Translations under genes and position numbers: made by a program
Virus record (IMG/VR): IMGVR_UViG_3300029288_000081
Location: 32,001-96,000 of that record
Length of the DNA: 64,000 bases
Direction: 5' to 3' (one strand)
Source of the DNA: a virus
Taxonomy: Duplodnaviria; Caudoviricetes
The notes under the pieces: generated by a model
Told to the model about the DNA's origin: nothing
What the model saw: only the letters and a program-made list of their open reading frames with translations
Database searches by the model: none
Shown here: in pieces, positions 16,994 through 31,709 of the stretch
How positions within the stretch are numbered: the first letter of the stretch is position 1
Layout: every line of letters begins with the position of its first letter

Positions 16994-19111
16994 TCAGCCC
17001 TTGATACACAAGATCTGCTTCAGCTGCGCCTCGATCTCGACGAGGTCCGCCTGGTTGTCCATGACCGCGTCGATGTCCTTGTAGGCGCCGGGGATCTCGT
17101 CGAGCACCCCGCTGTCCTTGCGGCACTCGACGCCCTTCGTCGCCTCGGCCAGGTCCTCGATGTTGAAGCGACGCTTGGCCTCGCCGCGCGACATGCGCCT
17201 GCCGGCACCGTGCGATGCGGAGTGGAAGCTCTCCGGGTTCCCGAGCCCCTTCACGATGTACGAGCACGTTCCCATCGAGCCCGGGATGATGCCGCGCTCG
17301 CCGAGGCGCGCCGAGATCGCCCCCTTGCGCGTGACGAGCACGTCCTCGCCGAAGTGGTGCTCCTCGCTGACGTAGTTGTGGTGACACGAGACGTGCTCCC
17401 CGAACGAGATGGTCGGGAAGTGGTGACGCAGGATGCCCGCGCAGATCCAGAGCATCACGTCGCGGTTCGACTTCGCGTACTCCTGAGCCCACATCAGGTC
17501 GTGCCTGTAGCTCGCCATCTCGGGCGTCTTCGCGAGGAAGACGGACAGGTCCTTGTCCGGCAGCTCCGCGTTGTGCGCGAGCTTCCGCGCGCGAGCGATG
17601 TGAACCTCGGCCAGGCACTTGCCGATGTTGCGCGAGCCCGAGTGCAGCATGAGCCACACGTGATCGTCTGTGTCGAGGCACAGCTCGATGAAGTGGTTGC
17701 CGCCGCCGAGCGTCCCGAGCTGCTTCTGGGCGTTGCCGAGCTTATCCTGCACGATCGGGTCGAGGTTCTTGAAGCCAGCCCAGAGCGTCGAGCGGATCGC
17801 TAGCCCGTGCGTCTCCGCATGGCTGCTGGGGCCGACGGGGATCTCCTCCTCGATCATCGACCGAAGCGACGACAGCGAGTCCGGCAGCGAGTGCGACGTC
17901 AGGTTCGTTCGCACCGCAGCCATGCCGCAGTTACCCGTCATCACGACGTTTCCGCCGCGACGCATCACCCAAAACCCCGACGGCACCGTGAAGCAATACT
18001 CGAAGCCGTCCGCACTGGGCACGTGTTCGATCGGCGTCTTGGGCGCCCCAGCGATTCCCACCATCGACTCCGCGTGACCGAACACGCGATAGTCGACATC
18101 GCCATCGCTGTCAGTGTCGGCTCGCATCACGGCTCGGCGCCCACTGGCTGCGAAGGCGTACTGGATGAAGTCGGCAGACGCACGGTCACGTGTGAAGAAT
18201 ACGTGGTCGGCGGCAGTGCCGTCCCAGTGCAGGCACTCGTCGCTGATCAGTGCGAGCTGCTGCTGCGAGGCGGCCCAAAAGTCACCATACGTCTTCGTTC
18301 TCACCGGAGCGTCGAAGACGAACGACATGACCTGCCCATCCTCGTACCGCGCGTCACGCGCGACGCTTTCACTGAAGGCGATTCCAGCTTGCACAAGCAG
18401 CTCACGCATGCGGGCCTTCTTGCGATCCTTAACGAGCTTGACGCGCACCCCACTGCCCGTGTTGGCCAGGAAGTGCCCGTCGGCCATGACCGCCACCTGC
18501 ACCCGAAGAGCCGCGTCTTCGACCGGCAGACTCGTCGTCGTCCGCGGACAGAACGCTGTCTGGAACTCCGCCTTGGCGCCGAGAACCAAGCGATCGTGCT
18601 CTGCGGCAAGATCGGAAGCGAGCATGACCATCTGCTCACGACGACGATCACGTCCAGTGATCCTCCAGCACAGCACGCGGTGGTCTGGCGAAAGCATCTG
18701 GTTCACACCGTACTTCGTGCGGAACCAAAGGAACCCGTTCGACGGTCGCTGCACGTAGGCGTCCGGCGCCACGAAGACGCCGTCGCCGGACGTTGGCTCA
18801 TACTGCATCACCAGACCACCATCATACTCGGAGATCCGTCGCCATCCGCCTGGTGACAGGTACTCCGTGTCTGCGTCAACGCAGCCGATGTCCACGCCGA
18901 CCGCAGCCGGCGACAGCGCGTCCTTCATCGCGATGACCGACCCGACCGTTGCCCCCTTGCCGAAGTGAACGTCGGGCATGACGGCCACGTGATGAAAGCA
19001 CCACGGCAGCGCCGCGATGCCCTTGAGCTGGTCGAGCGCAGACGACTCGACCTCGTGGATGGGCGTCCACAGCTTCACCGGAACGACCTTGCCCTTCATC
19101 TCGGAGATCAT
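16994..19111 (-). CDS. rtcB: RtcB RNA ligase containing an intein
   Basis: MPDVHFGKG, VGVDIG|C, LGTLGGGNHFIE, LHSGSR, HHNY, SASHGAGR, DEIPGAYKDI. Confidence 0.95.
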   Translation of the reverse strand: MISEMKGKVVPVKLWTPIHEVESSALDQLKGIAALPWCFHHVAVMPDVHFGKGATVGSVIAMKDALSPAAVGVDIGCVDADTEYLSPGGWRRISEYDGGLVMQYEPTSGDGVFVAPDAYVQRPSNGFLWFRTKYGVNQMLSPDHRVLCWRITGRDRRREQMVMLASDLAAEHDRLVLGAKAEFQTAFCPRTTTSLPVEDAALRVQVAVMADGHFLANTGSGVRVKLVKDRKKARMRELLVQAGIAFSESVARDARYEDGQVMSFVFDAPVRTKTYGDFWAASQQQLALISDECLHWDGTAADHVFFTRDRASADFIQYAFAASGRRAVMRADTDSDGDVDYRVFGHAESMVGIAGAPKTPIEHVPSADGFEYCFTVPSGFWVMRRGGNVVMTGNCGMAAVRTNLTSHSLPDSLSSLRSMIEEEIPVGPSSHAETHGLAIRSTLWAGFKNLDPIVQDKLGNAQKQLGTLGGGNHFIELCLDTDDHVWLMLHSGSRNIGKCLAEVHIARARKLAHNAELPDKDLSVFLAKTPEMASYRHDLMWAQEYAKSNRDVMLWICAGILRHHFPTISFGEHVSCHHNYVSEEHHFGEDVLVTRKGAISARLGERGIIPGSMGTCSYIVKGLGNPESFHSASHGAGRRMSRGEAKRRFNIEDLAEATKGVECRKDSGVLDEIPGAYKDIDAVMDNQADLVEIEAQLKQILCIKG
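17930..18883 (-). mobile_element. intein (318 aa) inserted immediately before the catalytic Cys of RtcB
   Basis: DIG|CVDADTEYL start, SPDHRV block B, VAVMADG degenerate LAGLIDADG, YCFTVPSG...VVMTGN|CG end. Confidence 0.92.
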
Positions 19112-19113
19112 GG

Positions 19114-19395
19114 TCAGACCACCTTCTTCAGATCGCTGATGCTCAGGTCGGGGATCAGCTTCGCGTACTCGCCCAGCTCCATGCCGTGCGGCCCGTCCTC
19201 GTGCTTCGGGCACCAGAACGCCAGGTGCGCCGGCATCGGGCGAACACCAGCGTGCTTCTCGTGCTGGTAGCTCGCGATGTCACACGAGCCCCATGGACGA
19301 CCGTGCGGGAAGGTCGAGTGCTTGCACGTGCCGCACGTCTTCACGATGCGCACGCCCTGGTCCTTCAGGACCTTGAGCTTCGTCTTGTCCGGCAT
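19114..19395 (-). CDS. small Cys/His-rich hypothetical protein
   Basis: CGTC motif; first gene of the rtcB unit, with an operator palindrome upstream. Confidence 0.65.
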   Translation of the reverse strand: MPDKTKLKVLKDQGVRIVKTCGTCKHSTFPHGRPWGSCDIASYQHEKHAGVRPMPAHLAFWCPKHEDGPHGMELGEYAKLIPDLSISDLKKVV

Positions 19396-28121: not shown

Positions 28122-28193
28122 AGCCTCCACCCGGACGTGCGCCGGGCTCTCTCGCTTACGAAGCGAGCGCGTCGCTATCTACGCTTTGGAGGC
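28122..28193 (-). tRNA. tRNA-Thr(CGT)
   Basis: Loop TTCGTAA; atypical T-loop CGCACGT. Confidence 0.75.
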
Positions 28194-28590: not shown

Positions 28591-29103
28591 TCATGCCGCC
28601 TTACCGAAGTAGGGCTTCCACGACTCGGGGACGGTCCTGGCGTCGAACTTCTTCGGCACGACGGGCAGCCAGCCCGGCTTCCTGGGCTGCCTCTGGAGCG
28701 GCATCTTTGCCTCGTCGGGGGTGCGGTCACCCTTCTTCGAGTTGCACTTGTAGCAGGCCGCGACGATGTTCTCCCACTCGGTGCGTCCACCGCGCGAGCG
28801 CGGCAGGACGTGGTCGTAGTTGAGCTGGTGGGGCTCGAACTCCTTCCGGCAATACTGGCAGGTGTGACCGTCGCGCAGGAGCACGTTGGCCCGGGAGAAC
28901 TTGATCGACACCTTCCGCGAGCGCGTCTTGCGCGTCATGCGGATGATGCTCGGCATGTGCATGGTGATGGACGGGGACCGGATCACCTCGTCGGTTGACT
29001 CGACCGTCTCTGCCTTCTCGTCGTAGAGGAGGCAGATCGCTCGCTCCCACGAGACGACCCGGCTGGGTTGGTAGAAGGCGTCGAGGACGAGTACGCGCTG
29101 CAT
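28591..29103 (-). CDS. HNH endonuclease (McrA/HNH_5-like) inside the tRNA array
   Basis: VLVLDAFYQP, RDGHTCQYC, DHVLPRSRGG, ENIVAACYKCNSKKG. Confidence 0.92.
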   Translation of the reverse strand: MQRVLVLDAFYQPSRVVSWERAICLLYDEKAETVESTDEVIRSPSITMHMPSIIRMTRKTRSRKVSIKFSRANVLLRDGHTCQYCRKEFEPHQLNYDHVLPRSRGGRTEWENIVAACYKCNSKKGDRTPDEAKMPLQRQPRKPGWLPVVPKKFDARTVPESWKPYFGKAA

Positions 29104-29125
29104 GATGATCATCTCCGTGTGGTTG

Positions 29126-29210
29126 TGCGCGGGAGAGGAATCGAACCTCCACGTCCCGAAGGACACCGGTGTTTGAAACCGGCCCCGCCTACCTGTTACG
29201 GCACCCGCGC
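29126..29210 (-). tRNA. tRNA-Leu(CAA)
   Basis: Loop TTCAAAC, long V-arm, A73. Confidence 0.85.
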
Positions 29211-29867: not shown

Positions 29868-29938
29868 CGCAGCCGACAGGAGTTGAACCCGCACACACCG
29901 GCTTAGAACACCGGCTACCCTCCAGTGGGCACAGCTGC
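29868..29938 (-). tRNA. tRNA-Arg(TCT)
   Basis: Loop GTTCTAA. Confidence 0.75.
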
Positions 29939-30335: not shown

Positions 30336-30409
30336 TGGACCTGGAGGGCTCCGCCCCCTCCACCTCTCGGGTGCAAACCGAGCGCTCTCCTAGAATGAGC
30401 TACAGGCCC
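30336..30409 (-). tRNA. tRNA-Ala(TGC)
   Basis: G3-U70, loop TTTGCAC; T-loop GGCGGAG. Confidence 0.82.
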
Positions 30410-30415
30410 AGATAG

Positions 30416-30627
30416 TTCTGCCGGTGGGAATCGAACCCACACCATTCGCTGCTGCAATCTCTTGTTAGGAAACGCGCTTCCCTAGCGACCAGGGGGCTCC
30501 TTGCCATTCGGTGCATCCGCAACCTCTGAGACCTACCTTCACCCTCTTGCGAGGTAGCCGGCGCAGCGATGCCTTTTACGGTCGTCGGCTCCGTTTTTCC
30601 GATGCTCTTCCGTTGAGCTACGGCAGA
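30416..30627 (-). ncRNA. 212-nt tRNA-framed RNA (acceptor, D and T arms with about 140 extra nt in place of a normal anticodon arm)
   Basis: TCTGCCG/CGGCAGA acceptor, TAGCTCAACGGAAGAGC D-arm, GTGGGTTCGATTCCCAC T-arm. Confidence 0.75.
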
Positions 30628-30861: not shown

Positions 30862-30935
30862 GGTGATCGACCGGACTTGAACCGGCTTGGACTGCGGCCA
30901 CAACGCAGCGCCTCGACTCTTCGGCCTCGACCACC
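30862..30935 (-). tRNA. tRNA-His(GTG)
   Basis: G-1/C73, loop TTGTGGC. Confidence 0.85.
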
Positions 30936-31098: not shown

Positions 31099-31101
31099 AG
31101 A

Positions 31102-31166
31102 AGACCGATGCGTTCCGACGGTGCCTTCCAACTTCGCTGGATGCGTCCCACCGGTGCCTTCGGTCT
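31102..31166 (-). ncRNA. two-fold symmetric structured spacer RNA
   Basis: AGACCGA/TCGGTCT closing stem; two copies of GAAGGCACCG-NN-GG(G/A)ACGCATC. Confidence 0.5.
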
Positions 31167-31167
31167 A

Positions 31168-31239
31168 TGCCCACCCGTGGAGTTGAACCACGTCCTCCCG
31201 ATTTTCAGTCGGGCGCTACTCCGCGTTAGCTTGGTGGGC
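31168..31239 (-). tRNA. tRNA-Phe(GAA)
   Basis: Loop CTGAAAA. Confidence 0.85.
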
Positions 31240-31623
31240 GTTCTTCTTCTTTTCGCGCCATGCGCGCTGGTACTCGCGACTCGCGAGCACGCACAGGTCG
31301 CAGCGGCAACCTCGATGGCGATACGTTGCAATAGTTCCGTGTTGTCCCAGTGGCCGGTGCCCAAGATCGATCCGCGTCTTCTTCTCGTGACACCGCTTGC
31401 ACAGCAGCTGGCACATCTTCAGTTCCTTCATGAACTTCGGTAGTCCAACTGACCGCATGTGCTCGAAGCTCATCGTCTTCTTGTGCGGGTCAACGTGATC
31501 GACATGAAGACTCGTCTTCGAGGCACACGCGGCGCACTTGCCGCCCAAAAACTTCAGCGCAATCGCCCGACGCTCGTGGTATCGGCGCTTCATGTAGATG
31601 CGCATGTACTCGTTCGACGGCAT
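31216..31623 (-). CDS. HNH endonuclease inside the tRNA array
   Basis: LGGKCAAC, LHVDHVDP, ELKMCQLLCKRCH, HGT..Y...GCRCDLC; stop codon lies inside tRNA-Phe. Confidence 0.88.
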   Translation of the reverse strand: MPSNEYMRIYMKRRYHERRAIALKFLGGKCAACASKTSLHVDHVDPHKKTMSFEHMRSVGLPKFMKELKMCQLLCKRCHEKKTRIDLGHRPLGQHGTIATYRHRGCRCDLCVLASREYQRAWREKKKNAHQANAE

Positions 31624-31638
31624 GTCAGACAAGTACCA

Positions 31639-31709
31639 CACGTCGGCCAGGAGTCGAACCTGATCGACGACGGATTTGGAGTCCATCCGGCTACCTCAGC
31701 CTCCGACGT
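31639..31709 (-). tRNA. tRNA-Trp(CCA)
   Basis: Loop CTCCAAA, G73. Confidence 0.8.

What the first reader, a model, noticed from the sequence alone, without database searches (positions are those of the whole stretch)
30416..30627. 212-nt tRNA-framed RNA with a pseudoknot and a large inserted domain
Seen (minus strand): perfect 7-bp acceptor and canonical D and T arms. After the D-arm come a possible H-type pseudoknot (TCGG/CCGA with ACGG/CCGT) and then a stem TCGCTGC/GCAGCGA that encloses about 100 nt of further hairpins (for example CCTC-GCAA-GAGG) in place of an anticodon loop. It abuts tRNA-Val, so it should be released by tRNA processing. It lacks the Ala identity of tmRNA and is short for a group I intron. 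Inference: a novel tRNA-scaffolded ncRNA, or an RtcB-spliced tRNA.
Basis: partly seen in the sequence, partly recalled or inferred. Interest (0 to 1): 0.72.

Follow-up and report, generated by a model that had tools for sequence, protein, structure and literature searches.

The report
tRNA-shaped Y-RNA-like gene in phage
The 212-base stretch is a real gene for a folded RNA with the ends and elbow of a tRNA but no anticodon. It belongs to a widespread RNA family that I could not find described, and it most likely works as a docking partner ("Y RNA") for the RNA-surveillance protein Ro60.

Summary
Window 30416-30627 (minus strand) has a 7-bp acceptor stem, D arm, T arm, the UCGG/CCGA hairpin and the UCGCUGC/GCAGCGA stem.

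It is not an intron-bearing tRNA. I collected 26 homologues of 152-243 nt. They come from cultured Streptomyces phages (GiJojo, Francob, Gilson, Kela, all unannotated there), IMG/VR phages and Myxococcota chromosomes. Every helix of the tRNA frame, the hairpin and two stems of the long arm covary.

The long arm ends in a roughly 70-nt four-way-junction core with 34 invariant bases, including CCGAAUGG. That string contains the CGAA motif through which Y RNAs bind Ro60. No Rfam 15 family matches.

A Ro60 (TROVE) gene is present in 16 of 22 records that hold the RNA, and lies directly downstream of it in three phages. In Sandaracinaceae all 9 RNA-positive genomes have Ro60, against 9 of 23 RNA-negative ones.

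This phage has no Ro60 gene, so a host Ro60 or some other partner must be assumed. Binding is inferred, not shown. RtcB splicing is not supported: 0 of 5 other carrier phages have RtcB, and no anticodon loop can be restored.

The scan met this family before on other DNA (e1-5712825, e1-5712842).

The parts
30416..30627 (-). Whole 212-nt tRNA-framed RNA gene. It abuts tRNA-Val(GAC) upstream and lies 6 nt before tRNA-Ala(UGC). No CCA is encoded.
30621..30627 (-). Acceptor stem, 5' strand (RNA 1-7, UCUGCCG). It pairs with 30417-30423.
   Evidence: All 7 pairs show double changes across 26 sequences, with 100% of cells paired.
30604..30618 (-). D arm (RNA 10-24), GCUC-AACGGAA-GAGC, with G18 and G19 kept.
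   Evidence: Three of the 4 pairs covary, and the GG of the loop is nearly invariant.
30585..30602 (-). Hairpin A (RNA 26-43): a 4-bp stem UCGG/CCGA with the conserved 10-nt loop AAAAACGGAG. It follows position 26 directly, as an anticodon arm would, but has no U33 and no 7-nt loop.
   Evidence: All 4 pairs covary (CG, UA, GC and AU types). The loop motif AAAACG is conserved.
30571..30581 (-). CCGUAAAAGGC (RNA 47-57), conserved only in long-form relatives.
   Evidence: One search finds the motif C[CU]GUAA[AG][AU]GGC in 11 of 11 long forms. There are no compensatory changes for the pseudoknot.
30563..30569 (-). Extension stem, 5' strand (RNA 59-65, UCGCUGC). It pairs with 30446-30452 (RNA 176-182, GCAGCGA).
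   Evidence: Long forms have different but complementary helices here: 8 bp in 6 of 11 and 7 bp in the window. Eleven percent of mismatched-partner controls reach 8 bp. The C177U change in L022 keeps the pair as G-U.
30533..30562 (-). Side branch of the three-way junction (RNA 66-95): the CCUC-GCAA-GAGG hairpin, flanked by the conserved strands ..CUAC and GGGUG(U/A)(G/A)GGUAG.
   Evidence: The hairpin stem varies and pairs in relatives, while the flanking strands are conserved.
30456..30533 (-). Conserved core domain (RNA 95-172): a closing helix GGUCUC/GAGAUU around a four-way junction of three hairpins.
   Evidence: Core model R1 scores 81.1 bits, E = 5e-23, and this is the only copy in the genome. 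The closing helix is 6 bp in 23 of 26 sequences, with 22 distinct helices, against 11% in controls. The U172C change in L022 turns a G-U pair into G-C.
30510..30524 (-). Core hairpin H1 (RNA 104-118): GG-U-UGC[GGAU]GCA-CC.
   Evidence: RNAalifold consensus. The stem is invariant and only the tetraloop varies (GGAU, AGAG, AGAA).
30504..30511 (-). Invariant CCGAAUGG (RNA 117-124), the predicted Ro60-docking motif. It matches the CGAA / GNCGAAN0-1G motif of bacterial and phage Y RNAs.
   Evidence: All eight bases are invariant in 24 of 24 core sequences. The Rfam YrlA consensus reads ..ggCgaAUGC... The motif is defined in PMC4201824 and PMC12135203.
30487..30505 (-). Core hairpin H2 (RNA 123-141): an invariant base GGC/GUC with a variable distal stem-loop.
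   Evidence: The distal pairs covary (CG, GC, UG and AU types).
30468..30482 (-). Core hairpin H3 (RNA 146-160): GGG[AAGCGCGUU]UCC. Loop bases A149-G155 (AAGCGCG) are invariant.
30424..30440 (-). T arm (RNA 188-204), GUGGG-UUCGAUU-CCCAC.
   Evidence: Four of the 5 pairs covary. U54, U55, C56 and A58 are invariant.
30416..30423 (-). Acceptor stem, 3' strand (RNA 205-211), plus discriminator A212.

Best explanation
The gene encodes a non-decoding RNA built on a complete tRNA frame.

Proposed course of events:
1. It is probably transcribed with the phage's tRNA array.
2. The enzymes that mature tRNAs probably cut it out (RNase P at U1, 3' trimming, possibly CCA addition).
3. It folds into the acceptor/T/D 'top half' of a tRNA.

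It carries two extra arms. One is a short hairpin where the anticodon arm would be, with a conserved loop AAAAACGGAG that cannot decode. The other is a long arm: a 7-bp stem, then a three-way junction with a GCAA hairpin, then a four-way-junction core.

The core displays the invariant string CCGAAUGG. This contains the CGAA motif through which bacterial and phage Y RNAs are bound by the ring protein Ro60 (Rsr).

I therefore read it as a new architectural class of Y-like RNA. In it the Ro60-docking module is grafted onto a true tRNA body, the inverse of YrlA, where a closed tRNA-like module sits on a Ro60-binding stem formed by the RNA's ends.

Like other Y RNAs it would dock on Ro60 and couple it to a second factor. 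That factor could be PNPase or something that recognises the tRNA elbow or acceptor. The effect would be to redirect RNA surveillance or decay during infection.

This phage encodes no Ro60, so the partner here would have to be the host's Ro60.

Shown: the structure, the conservation, the shared motif and the genomic association. Inferred: processing, Ro60 binding and the downstream effect.
For: 1. Family and structure.
- 26 homologues share the frame and core.
- 97.6% of cells pair, with 149 double-change cells against 38 in shuffles.
- The closing helix has 22 distinct complementary versions, and the extension stem covaries.

2. The core has 34 invariant columns, including CCGAAUGG.
- Chen et al. 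2014 define the Rsr-binding motif GNCGAAN0-1G, which resembles the vertebrate GGUCCGA (PMC4201824).
- The phiLo study used the CGAA motif to find Yrl1 and Yrl2 and showed that both bind phage Ro60 (PMC12135203).
- The Rfam YrlA consensus has ggCgaAUGC at that site.

3. Co-occurrence with Ro60.
- A TROVE/Ro60-like gene is found in 16 of 22 records that hold the RNA. Pfam TROVE and Ro60-vWA hits confirm it.
- Ro60 was found in only 2 of 14 control genomes.

4. Adjacency. The RNA lies directly upstream of the Ro60 gene, on the same strand, in three phages whose Ro60 proteins are only 22-42% identical.
- G001, where a YrlA-like RNA sits beside it as well.
- G003.
- G013.

5. Within Sandaracinaceae (32 genomes) the RNA is in 9 and Ro60 in 18, and all 9 RNA-positive genomes are Ro60-positive. 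The hypergeometric p is about 0.002, without phylogenetic correction.

6. The tRNA elbow determinants (G18, G19, U54, U55, C56, A58) are invariant or nearly so. These suit recognition by tRNA-handling enzymes, as shown experimentally for YrlA (PMC4201824).

7. Of the four substitutions in the near-identical copy L022, two keep or improve pairs (U172C, C177U). One hits a linker position that also varies elsewhere in the family (U144C).
Against: - This phage, rated 100% complete by CheckV, has no Ro60 gene. Three searches found none: the Pfam TROVE search, a family-specific HMM over all six frames, and a profile search. Another complete carrier phage, G006, also has none.
- The host is unknown, so whether it has Ro60 is untested.
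- The motif here begins A-C-C-GAA, not G-N-C-GAA. It sits inside a four-way junction, not in a stem formed by the RNA's ends.
- Rfam's YrlA model does not recognise the RNA.
- In a sample of 61 Polyangiaceae genomes only 3 of 5 RNA hits, four of them weak, fall in Ro60-positive genomes. The base rate there is 17 of 61, so this is not significant.
- Co-occurrence counts are not corrected for shared ancestry.
- Nothing explains the equally invariant H3 loop AAGCGCGUU or the hairpin-A loop.
- There are no expression or binding data.
Confidence: 0.55

Rival explanations
1. A tRNA-scaffolded RNA whose conserved core serves a partner other than Ro60. Candidates include PNPase, another RNase, a tRNA-modifying or repair enzyme, or a host tRNA-targeting defence nuclease for which it acts as a decoy or sponge. 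On this view the Ro60 co-occurrence only reflects a shared 'RNA-repair' gene set in tRNA-rich phages.
For: - Two complete phages, this one and G006, keep an intact core without any Ro60 gene.
- The most conserved loops (AAGCGCGUU, AAAACGG) are not known Ro60 determinants.
- This phage also carries other anticodon-less tRNA mimics next to RtcB.
- The replicate test in Polyangiaceae is weak.
Against: - The RNA is adjacent to Ro60 genes, on the same strand, in three phages with highly diverged Ro60.
- All 9 RNA-positive Sandaracinaceae genomes are Ro60-positive.
- The invariant CGAA-type motif is shared with YrlA.
- The RNA is chromosomal among ordinary cellular genes in the Polyangiaceae MAG and lies mid-chromosome in two single-contig Sandaracinaceae genomes. 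This argues against a purely anti-defence role.
Confidence: 0.25
2. An intron-containing tRNA. The extra 140 nt would be removed either by self-splicing or by an endonuclease plus the phage's RtcB ligase, yielding a tRNA of about 75 nt.
For: - The phage encodes an intein-bearing RtcB at 16994-19213.
- UCGCU/AGCGA plus AUGGU could serve as an anticodon stem and variable loop.
- The direct repeat GCAUCG (RNA 23-28 and 56-61) would allow a clean join after the D arm.
- ARAGORN in intron mode returns a call.
Against: - No excision gives a 7-nt loop with U33. The only candidate (UUGCAGC) loses U33 in the near-identical copy L022.
- ARAGORN's calls differ between the two copies (Arg-ACG versus Ala-CGC).
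- The 'intron' core is invariant across phyla while the 'exons' vary.
- Short-form relatives have no second stem that could act as an anticodon stem.
- None of 5 other carrier phages has RtcB.
- There is no hit to group I or II introns or to any self-cleaving ribozyme at E up to 10.
- 140 nt is well below the smallest self-splicing group I introns I know of (about 200 nt; from my own knowledge).
Confidence: 0.04
3. A chargeable, possibly decoding, derivative of tRNA-Arg(ACG) with a giant variable arm. Hairpin A would be its anticodon arm, and the RNA would deliver arginine to the ribosome or to a transferase.
For: - The hairpin-A loop keeps ACG, and one relative has GCG, which is also an Arg anticodon.
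- Most members have A at D-loop position 20, an ArgRS identity element (from my own knowledge).
- A normal tRNA-Arg(ACG) lies directly upstream of the element in several relatives: L056, L059, L053, L042 and Kela.
Against: - The loop is 8-10 nt with no U33.
- Myxococcota members change it to ACGC, AUGG or ACGU.
- A20 is replaced by C or U in six members.
- Acceptor sequences and discriminators vary freely, and a G3-U70 pair occurs in some members. No single synthetase identity is therefore conserved.
- This phage already has tRNA-Arg(ACG).
Confidence: 0.05
4. A dead tRNA gene disrupted by an insertion, with no function.
For: - The fold is not more stable than shuffled sequence (z = -0.95).
- A close relative (run X4) has 188 unlike bases in this slot.
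Against: - There are 26 homologues across phages and bacteria, with 34 invariant core positions and pervasive compensatory changes.
- Only one copy exists per genome.
Confidence: 0.01

Closest known systems
YrlA-type bacterial and phage Y RNAs (Rfam RF02553; Chen et al. 2014, PMC4201824)
   Same: - Non-decoding RNA with tRNA-like D and T arms.
- A CGAA-type motif..CGAAUG.. in both.
- Encoded beside or together with Ro60 (TROVE) genes in bacteria and phages.
- In phage G001 a YrlA-like RNA and a member of this family sit side by side upstream of Ro60.
   Different: - The topology is inverted. Here the RNA's ends form a genuine 7-bp acceptor stem with a free 3' end, and the Ro60-type motif lies in an internal four-way junction on a long arm. 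In YrlA the ends form the Ro60-binding stem and the 'acceptor' is a closed hairpin.
- It is longer (152-243 nt, against 114 positions in the Rfam YrlA model).
- It has extra invariant loops.
- It usually sits inside tRNA arrays.
- RF02553 does not detect it.
- This phage has no Ro60.
Yrl1 and Yrl2 of Thermus phage phiLo with phage Ro60 (PMC12135203)
   Same: Phage-encoded RNAs upstream of a phage Ro60 gene, identified by the CGAA motif. They were shown to bind Ro60 and host PNPase, which gives a precedent for phages redirecting host RNA decay.
   Different: The phiLo RNAs are simple stem-bulge-stem molecules with no tRNA frame. I found no sequence relationship beyond the motif.
tmRNA
   Same: A tRNA-like acceptor and T arm formed by the two ends of a longer structured RNA, and it is found in phages that carry large tRNA sets.
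   Different: - No G3-U70 alanine identity (U3-A70).
- A full D arm is present.
- No tag reading frame with a typical ending.
- ARAGORN and Rfam find no tmRNA.
Bacterial tRNA genes with group I introns (cyanobacterial tRNA-Leu and tRNA-fMet, Azoarcus tRNA-Ile; from my own knowledge)
   Same: A tRNA frame interrupted by structured RNA.
   Different: - The insert is too small.
- No group I core is detected.
- No anticodon loop is regenerated.
- The conservation pattern is reversed: the insert is conserved and the frame is variable.

Membership tests
Y RNA / YrlA (Ro60 partner RNAs) | Physically bound by Ro60 (Rsr) | not testable with these tools
   No binding data exist. This is inferred from the motif and from genomic association only.
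Y RNA / YrlA (Ro60 partner RNAs) | Conserved CGAA-type motif (GNCGAAN0-1G; vertebrate GGUCCGA) | tested here: met
   CCGAAUGG is invariant in 24 of 24 core sequences. It fits NCGAANG, although the first G of the published motif is A here. The YrlA consensus reads ggCgaAUGC.
Y RNA / YrlA (Ro60 partner RNAs) | Encoded next to, or in genomes with, a Ro60/TROVE gene | tested here: inconclusive
   For the family, Ro60 is present in 16 of 22 records, is adjacent in 3 phages, and is in 9 of 9 RNA-positive Sandaracinaceae. For this phage, no Ro60 was found and the host is unknown.
Y RNA / YrlA (Ro60 partner RNAs) | The Ro60-binding site lies in a stem formed by the RNA's 5' and 3' ends | tested here: not met
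   The ends form a tRNA acceptor stem, and the motif lies in an internal four-way junction.
Y RNA / YrlA (Ro60 partner RNAs) | Match to Rfam RF02553 | tested here: not met
   Only a 23.6-bit partial hit (gathering score 69), and it spans the junction with the neighbouring tRNA. There is no hit on the homologues.
tRNA (RF00005), decoding | Acceptor, D and T arms with elbow nucleotides | tested here: met
tRNA (RF00005), decoding | A 7-nt anticodon loop with U33 on a 5-bp stem | tested here: not met
   Hairpin A has a 4-bp stem and a 10-nt loop with no U. No excision restores a proper loop. The Rfam tRNA model matches only the T arm (14.6 bits).
tmRNA | G3-U70 alanine identity, a tag reading frame and pseudoknots | tested here: not met
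   The 3:70 pair is U-A. ARAGORN in tmRNA mode finds nothing. Rfam has no hit.
Group I intron in a tRNA, or ribozyme-flanked intron | A recognisable catalytic core and regeneration of the anticodon loop | tested here: not met
   No intron or ribozyme family appears at E up to 10, and no loop is restored.
Protein-spliced (RtcB-ligated) tRNA intron | Bulge-helix-bulge or other defined cut sites, with ligase co-occurrence | tested here: not met
   I saw no bulge-helix-bulge motif by eye. RtcB is absent from 5 of 5 other carrier phages. Cleavage itself cannot be tested here.

The most novel reading that the evidence does not exclude
The core (H1, GAAU, H2, and H3 with its invariant AAGCGCGUU loop), together with the AAAACGG hairpin, is a new functional RNA module in its own right. 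It could be a ligand- or protein-sensing device, or a catalytic one, mounted on a processable tRNA body that may be CCA-tagged or chargeable.

Phages lacking Ro60, like this one, would use it to take over host RNA surveillance or tRNA metabolism by a mechanism not covered by the Y-RNA 'gate and tether' model.
Probability: 0.15. Interest if true: 0.85.

Novelty: new variant of a known kind. Interest (0 to 1): 0.68.

Why it matters
Ro60 and Y RNAs are conserved from bacteria to humans, yet what the tRNA-like part of bacterial Y RNAs does is still open.

This family would be a second, structurally inverted solution: a true tRNA body carrying the Ro60-type motif. It is widespread in phage tRNA arrays and on myxobacterial chromosomes. 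It is unannotated even in cultured Streptomyces phages, which makes it directly testable at the bench.

Its retention in phages that have lost, or never had, Ro60 suggests that phages can address the host's RNA-surveillance machinery with an RNA alone.

It also explains a recurrent class of 'giant tRNA' oddities in phage annotation. It adds a candidate family for Rfam.

Tried and rejected
- **Rfam 15.** Gathering thresholds over the whole genome, and E up to 10 on the element, gave no family. There were only T-arm and YrlA fragments.
- **ARAGORN with introns.** It gave forced and mutually inconsistent calls.
- **tmRNA.** Rejected: no G3-U70 and no plausible tag frame.
- **BLAST of the full 212 nt against cultured phages at E 1e-5.** Nothing was found. 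Only the inner 81 nt at a relaxed E revealed homologues.
- **Exact-pattern scans of IMG/VR with three element- or tRNA-specific strings.** Nothing was found.
- **Flanking-protein searches for related loci.** Nothing was found.
- **Metagenome scan with the tRNA-Val 3' end.** It returned 24 chance hits and one near-identical copy, L022.
- **Sequencing runs.** No RNA holder is listed, so there is no expression evidence either way.
- **Laid contigs.** Run X4 has near-identical flanking tRNAs but 188 unlike letters in place of the element. I could not read those letters, so I cannot say whether it is a divergent family member or something else.
- **Ro60 in this phage.** Not found by Pfam, by a custom HMM or by a profile search. 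The best weak hit is a DUF2201/VWA protein carrying an intein.
- **Canonical YrlA in this phage.** Not found.
- **Loop-loop kissing** between AACG of hairpin A and CGUU of the H3 loop. It is compatible with two wobble changes, but L059 and Gilson break a pair without compensation, so it is unsupported.
It has no covariation.
- **Helix CUACC/GGUAG** from the single-sequence fold. It is not kept across the family, and the U93C change in L022 would break it.
- **Polyangiaceae replicate of the Ro60 association.** Not significant.
- **Haloarchaeal-virus idea** (archaeal-type introns). Dropped because the DNA comes from landfill, sludge and freshwater samples.
- **Two review papers on bacterial Y RNAs.** They were not held in the library.

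Full report
**What is there.**
- The window lies in a 171-kb virus record of 65% GC, rated complete by CheckV. The DNA is held by landfill, activated-sludge and freshwater metagenomes.
- Positions 27.9-32.4 kb hold more than 30 tRNA genes on the minus strand, interleaved with HNH endonuclease genes.
  - a perfect 7-bp acceptor stem (1-7/205-211);
  - U8 and A9;
  - D arm GCUC-AACGGAA-GAGC;
  - A at position 26;
  - hairpin UCGG/CCGA with a 10-nt loop;
  - stem UCGCUGC/GCAGCGA enclosing 110 nt;
  - a 5-nt AUGGU;
  - T arm GUGGG-UUCGAUU-CCCAC;
  - discriminator A.
- The element starts immediately after tRNA-Val(GAC) and ends 6 nt before a tRNA-Ala(UGC) that only Rfam detected.

**What it is not.**
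- No Rfam 15 family matches, even at E up to 10.
- The fold is not unusually stable (z = -0.95).
- ARAGORN in intron mode calls tRNA-Arg(ACG) with a 118-nt intron here. For a copy differing at four bases it calls tRNA-Ala(CGC) with a 138-nt intron. These are forced fits.
- No removal of the extra RNA recreates a 7-nt loop with U33.
- There is no G3-U70 pair, and ARAGORN finds no tmRNA.

**Finding relatives.**
- Full-length BLAST and exact-string scans failed.
- Laying metagenome contigs on the region gave the first lead. Unrelated contigs matched only RNA positions ~104-160.
- Searching that inner piece at relaxed E found 11 Streptomyces phages, always in unannotated gaps of their tRNA clusters.
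- The GiJojo copy then retrieved 21 phages.
- A two-anchor pattern taken from the conserved core found 14 IMG/VR contigs and 9 contigs of GTDB genomes.
- Each hit sits inside a complete tRNA frame of 152-243 nt.
- Most lie in phage tRNA arrays.
- In Polyangiaceae the gene is chromosomal, among a thermolysin-like peptidase, a PLP-dependent decarboxylase and a multicopper oxidase. In two single-contig Sandaracinaceae genomes it lies mid-chromosome.

**Structure.**
- On the 26-sequence alignment A1, the acceptor, D, hairpin-A and T stems all show compensatory changes.
- Overall 97.6% of cells pair, against 79% after shuffling and 40-50% after sliding. There are 149 double-change cells against 38.
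- The long arm is closed by a helix that is 6 bp in 23 of 26 sequences, with 22 different complementary versions. The mismatched-partner control gives 11%.
- Inside the closing helix is a four-way junction of three hairpins:
  - H1: GG-U-UGC[loop]GCA-CC;
  - linker GAAU;
  - H2: GGC...GUC with a covarying tip;
  - linker GCUA or UGUA;
  - H3: GGG[AAGCGCGUU]UCC.
- The core has 34 invariant columns.
- The window's RNA is a 'long form'. Ten relatives share three extra features with it:
  - the motif CCGUAA(A/G)(A/U)GGC;
  - a side hairpin that makes a three-way junction.
- Helix 2 (ACGG/CCGU) has no compensatory support, and its 3' strand is missing in short forms.
- Of the four differences in the near-identical copy L022, three fit the model. 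U172C turns a G-U pair into G-C in the closing helix. C177U turns G-C into G-U in the extension stem. U144C falls in a linker that also varies elsewhere in the family.

**The Ro60 link.**
- The invariant CCGAAUGG contains the CGAA motif. Chen et al. define it as GNCGAAN0-1G, the likely Rsr (Ro60) contact in bacterial Y RNAs, and note that it resembles vertebrate GGUCCGA (PMC4201824).
- The phiLo study used CGAA to locate two phage RNAs that it then showed bind phage Ro60 and host PNPase (PMC12135203).
- The Rfam YrlA consensus reads ggCgaAUGC at that site.
I tested it here.
- TROVE/Ro60-like genes occur in 16 of 22 records that carry the RNA, and Pfam confirms them.
  - All four cultured phage genomes tested have one.
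  - Six further phage contigs have one.
  - Six Myxococcota genomes have one.
- In three phages the RNA lies directly upstream of the Ro60 gene on the same strand: G001, G003 and G013.
- In G001 a YrlA-like RNA sits beside it.
- Those three Ro60 proteins are only 22-42% identical, so the linkage is old or recurrent.
- Among 32 Sandaracinaceae genomes the RNA is in 9 and Ro60 in 18, and all 9 RNA carriers have Ro60. The p value is about 0.002, uncorrected for phylogeny.
- A replicate in 61 Polyangiaceae genomes is inconclusive. Three of 5 RNA hits, mostly weak, fall in Ro60-positive genomes, against a 28% base rate.

**This phage in particular.**
- It has a single copy with a fully intact core (81 bits).
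- It has no Ro60 by three search methods and no canonical YrlA.
- Another complete carrier phage, G006, also lacks Ro60.
- So either the RNA works with the host's Ro60 (host unknown), or Ro60 is not its only partner.
- The phage does have an intein-bearing RtcB. RtcB is absent from five other carrier phages, so it is not part of this RNA's conserved context.

**Verdict.**
- The finding is real. It belongs to a widespread, strongly structured family of tRNA-framed RNAs that I could not find in Rfam or in the searchable literature.
- The best reading, at about 55%, is a new architectural class of Y-like RNA in which a Ro60-docking module is mounted on a genuine tRNA body.
- The main rival, at about 25%, is the same scaffold serving another partner.
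- The spliced-tRNA, decoding-tRNA and pseudogene readings are each unlikely.
- Binding, processing and function are inferred and untested. Cultured Streptomyces phages offer a direct test.
- The scan had already met this family on other DNA (e1-5712825, e1-5712842, e1-984664, e1-5828450 and e1-5828464).

Noticed in passing
window ~30863-30935 (-): A tRNA-His(GUG)-like gene missed by both ARAGORN and Rfam. It has G-1 plus acceptor GUGGUCG/CGAUCAC, anticodon loop UUGUGGC, T arm (G)CCGG-UUCAAGU-CCGG(U) and an odd D arm.
   Followed up: partly
window 28122-28193, 29868-29938, 30336-30409 (-): Three further tRNA genes found only by Rfam (41, 38 and 45 bits). The last is tRNA-Ala(UGC). ARAGORN's list of 30 is therefore incomplete.
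   Followed up: partly
window 16476-16556 and 16634-16709 (+): Two tRNA-shaped genes whose anticodon arm is replaced by a long stem capped CA-GCGA-UG. They flank a tRNA-Ile-like gene, just downstream of RtcB on the opposite strand. This is a different kind of anticodon-less tRNA mimic in the same phage, and the core model R1 does not match it.
   Followed up: partly
window 16994-19213 (-); 13926-16547 (-); L031:7307-9799 (-): Three phage genes appear to carry inteins. RtcB matches its family in two stretches and is 739 aa long. A glycosyltransferase has a LAGLIDADG domain. A DUF2201 metallopeptidase/VWA protein has LAGLIDADG and intein-splicing hits.
   Followed up: no
window 28591-29166 and 31216-31686 (-): HNH endonuclease genes sit inside the tRNA array. 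The related array in L022 is a mosaic, with a 650-bp insertion and a replaced block of about 300 bp relative to the window.
   Followed up: partly
window 31099-31167 (-): A 69-nt spacer between tRNA-Asp and tRNA-Phe holds an internal direct repeat, GAAGGCACCG-N-GG(G/A)ACGCAUC twice, flanked by complementary ends (UAGACCGA...UCGGUCU). It may be a small structured RNA.
   Followed up: no
window 30410-30626 versus run X4: A freshwater contig has tRNA-Ala and tRNA-Val/Ile flanks about 99% identical to the window, but 188 unlike bases replace the 217 bases of the element. This looks like cassette-style replacement, and I could not read the replacement.
   Followed up: partly
L034:1278-1442 (GiJojo); also L036 and L037: A second unannotated stretch of about 165 nt lies directly upstream of the family member in GiJojo-like Streptomyces phages. 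It is conserved (GGGAGUACCGCUA...UAGUAGGCAC(A/G)AGGGAUGAGACC) around a hairpin whose stem differs between phages but stays complementary. It may be another RNA gene, and it has no Rfam hit.
   Followed up: partly
L068:3076-3214 (-) and L072:2362-2506 (-): Sub-threshold but full-length YrlA matches (50 and 63 bits, gathering score 69) lie next to divergent Ro60 genes in a 424-kb phage and in a Sandaracinaceae genome. Rfam's cut-off misses these.
   Followed up: partly
L056, L059, L053, L042, L039 (Kela): In several relatives a normal tRNA-Arg(ACG) lies immediately upstream of the family member, and the hairpin-A loop keeps ACG. This hints that the family arose from a duplicated tRNA-Arg.
   Followed up: partly
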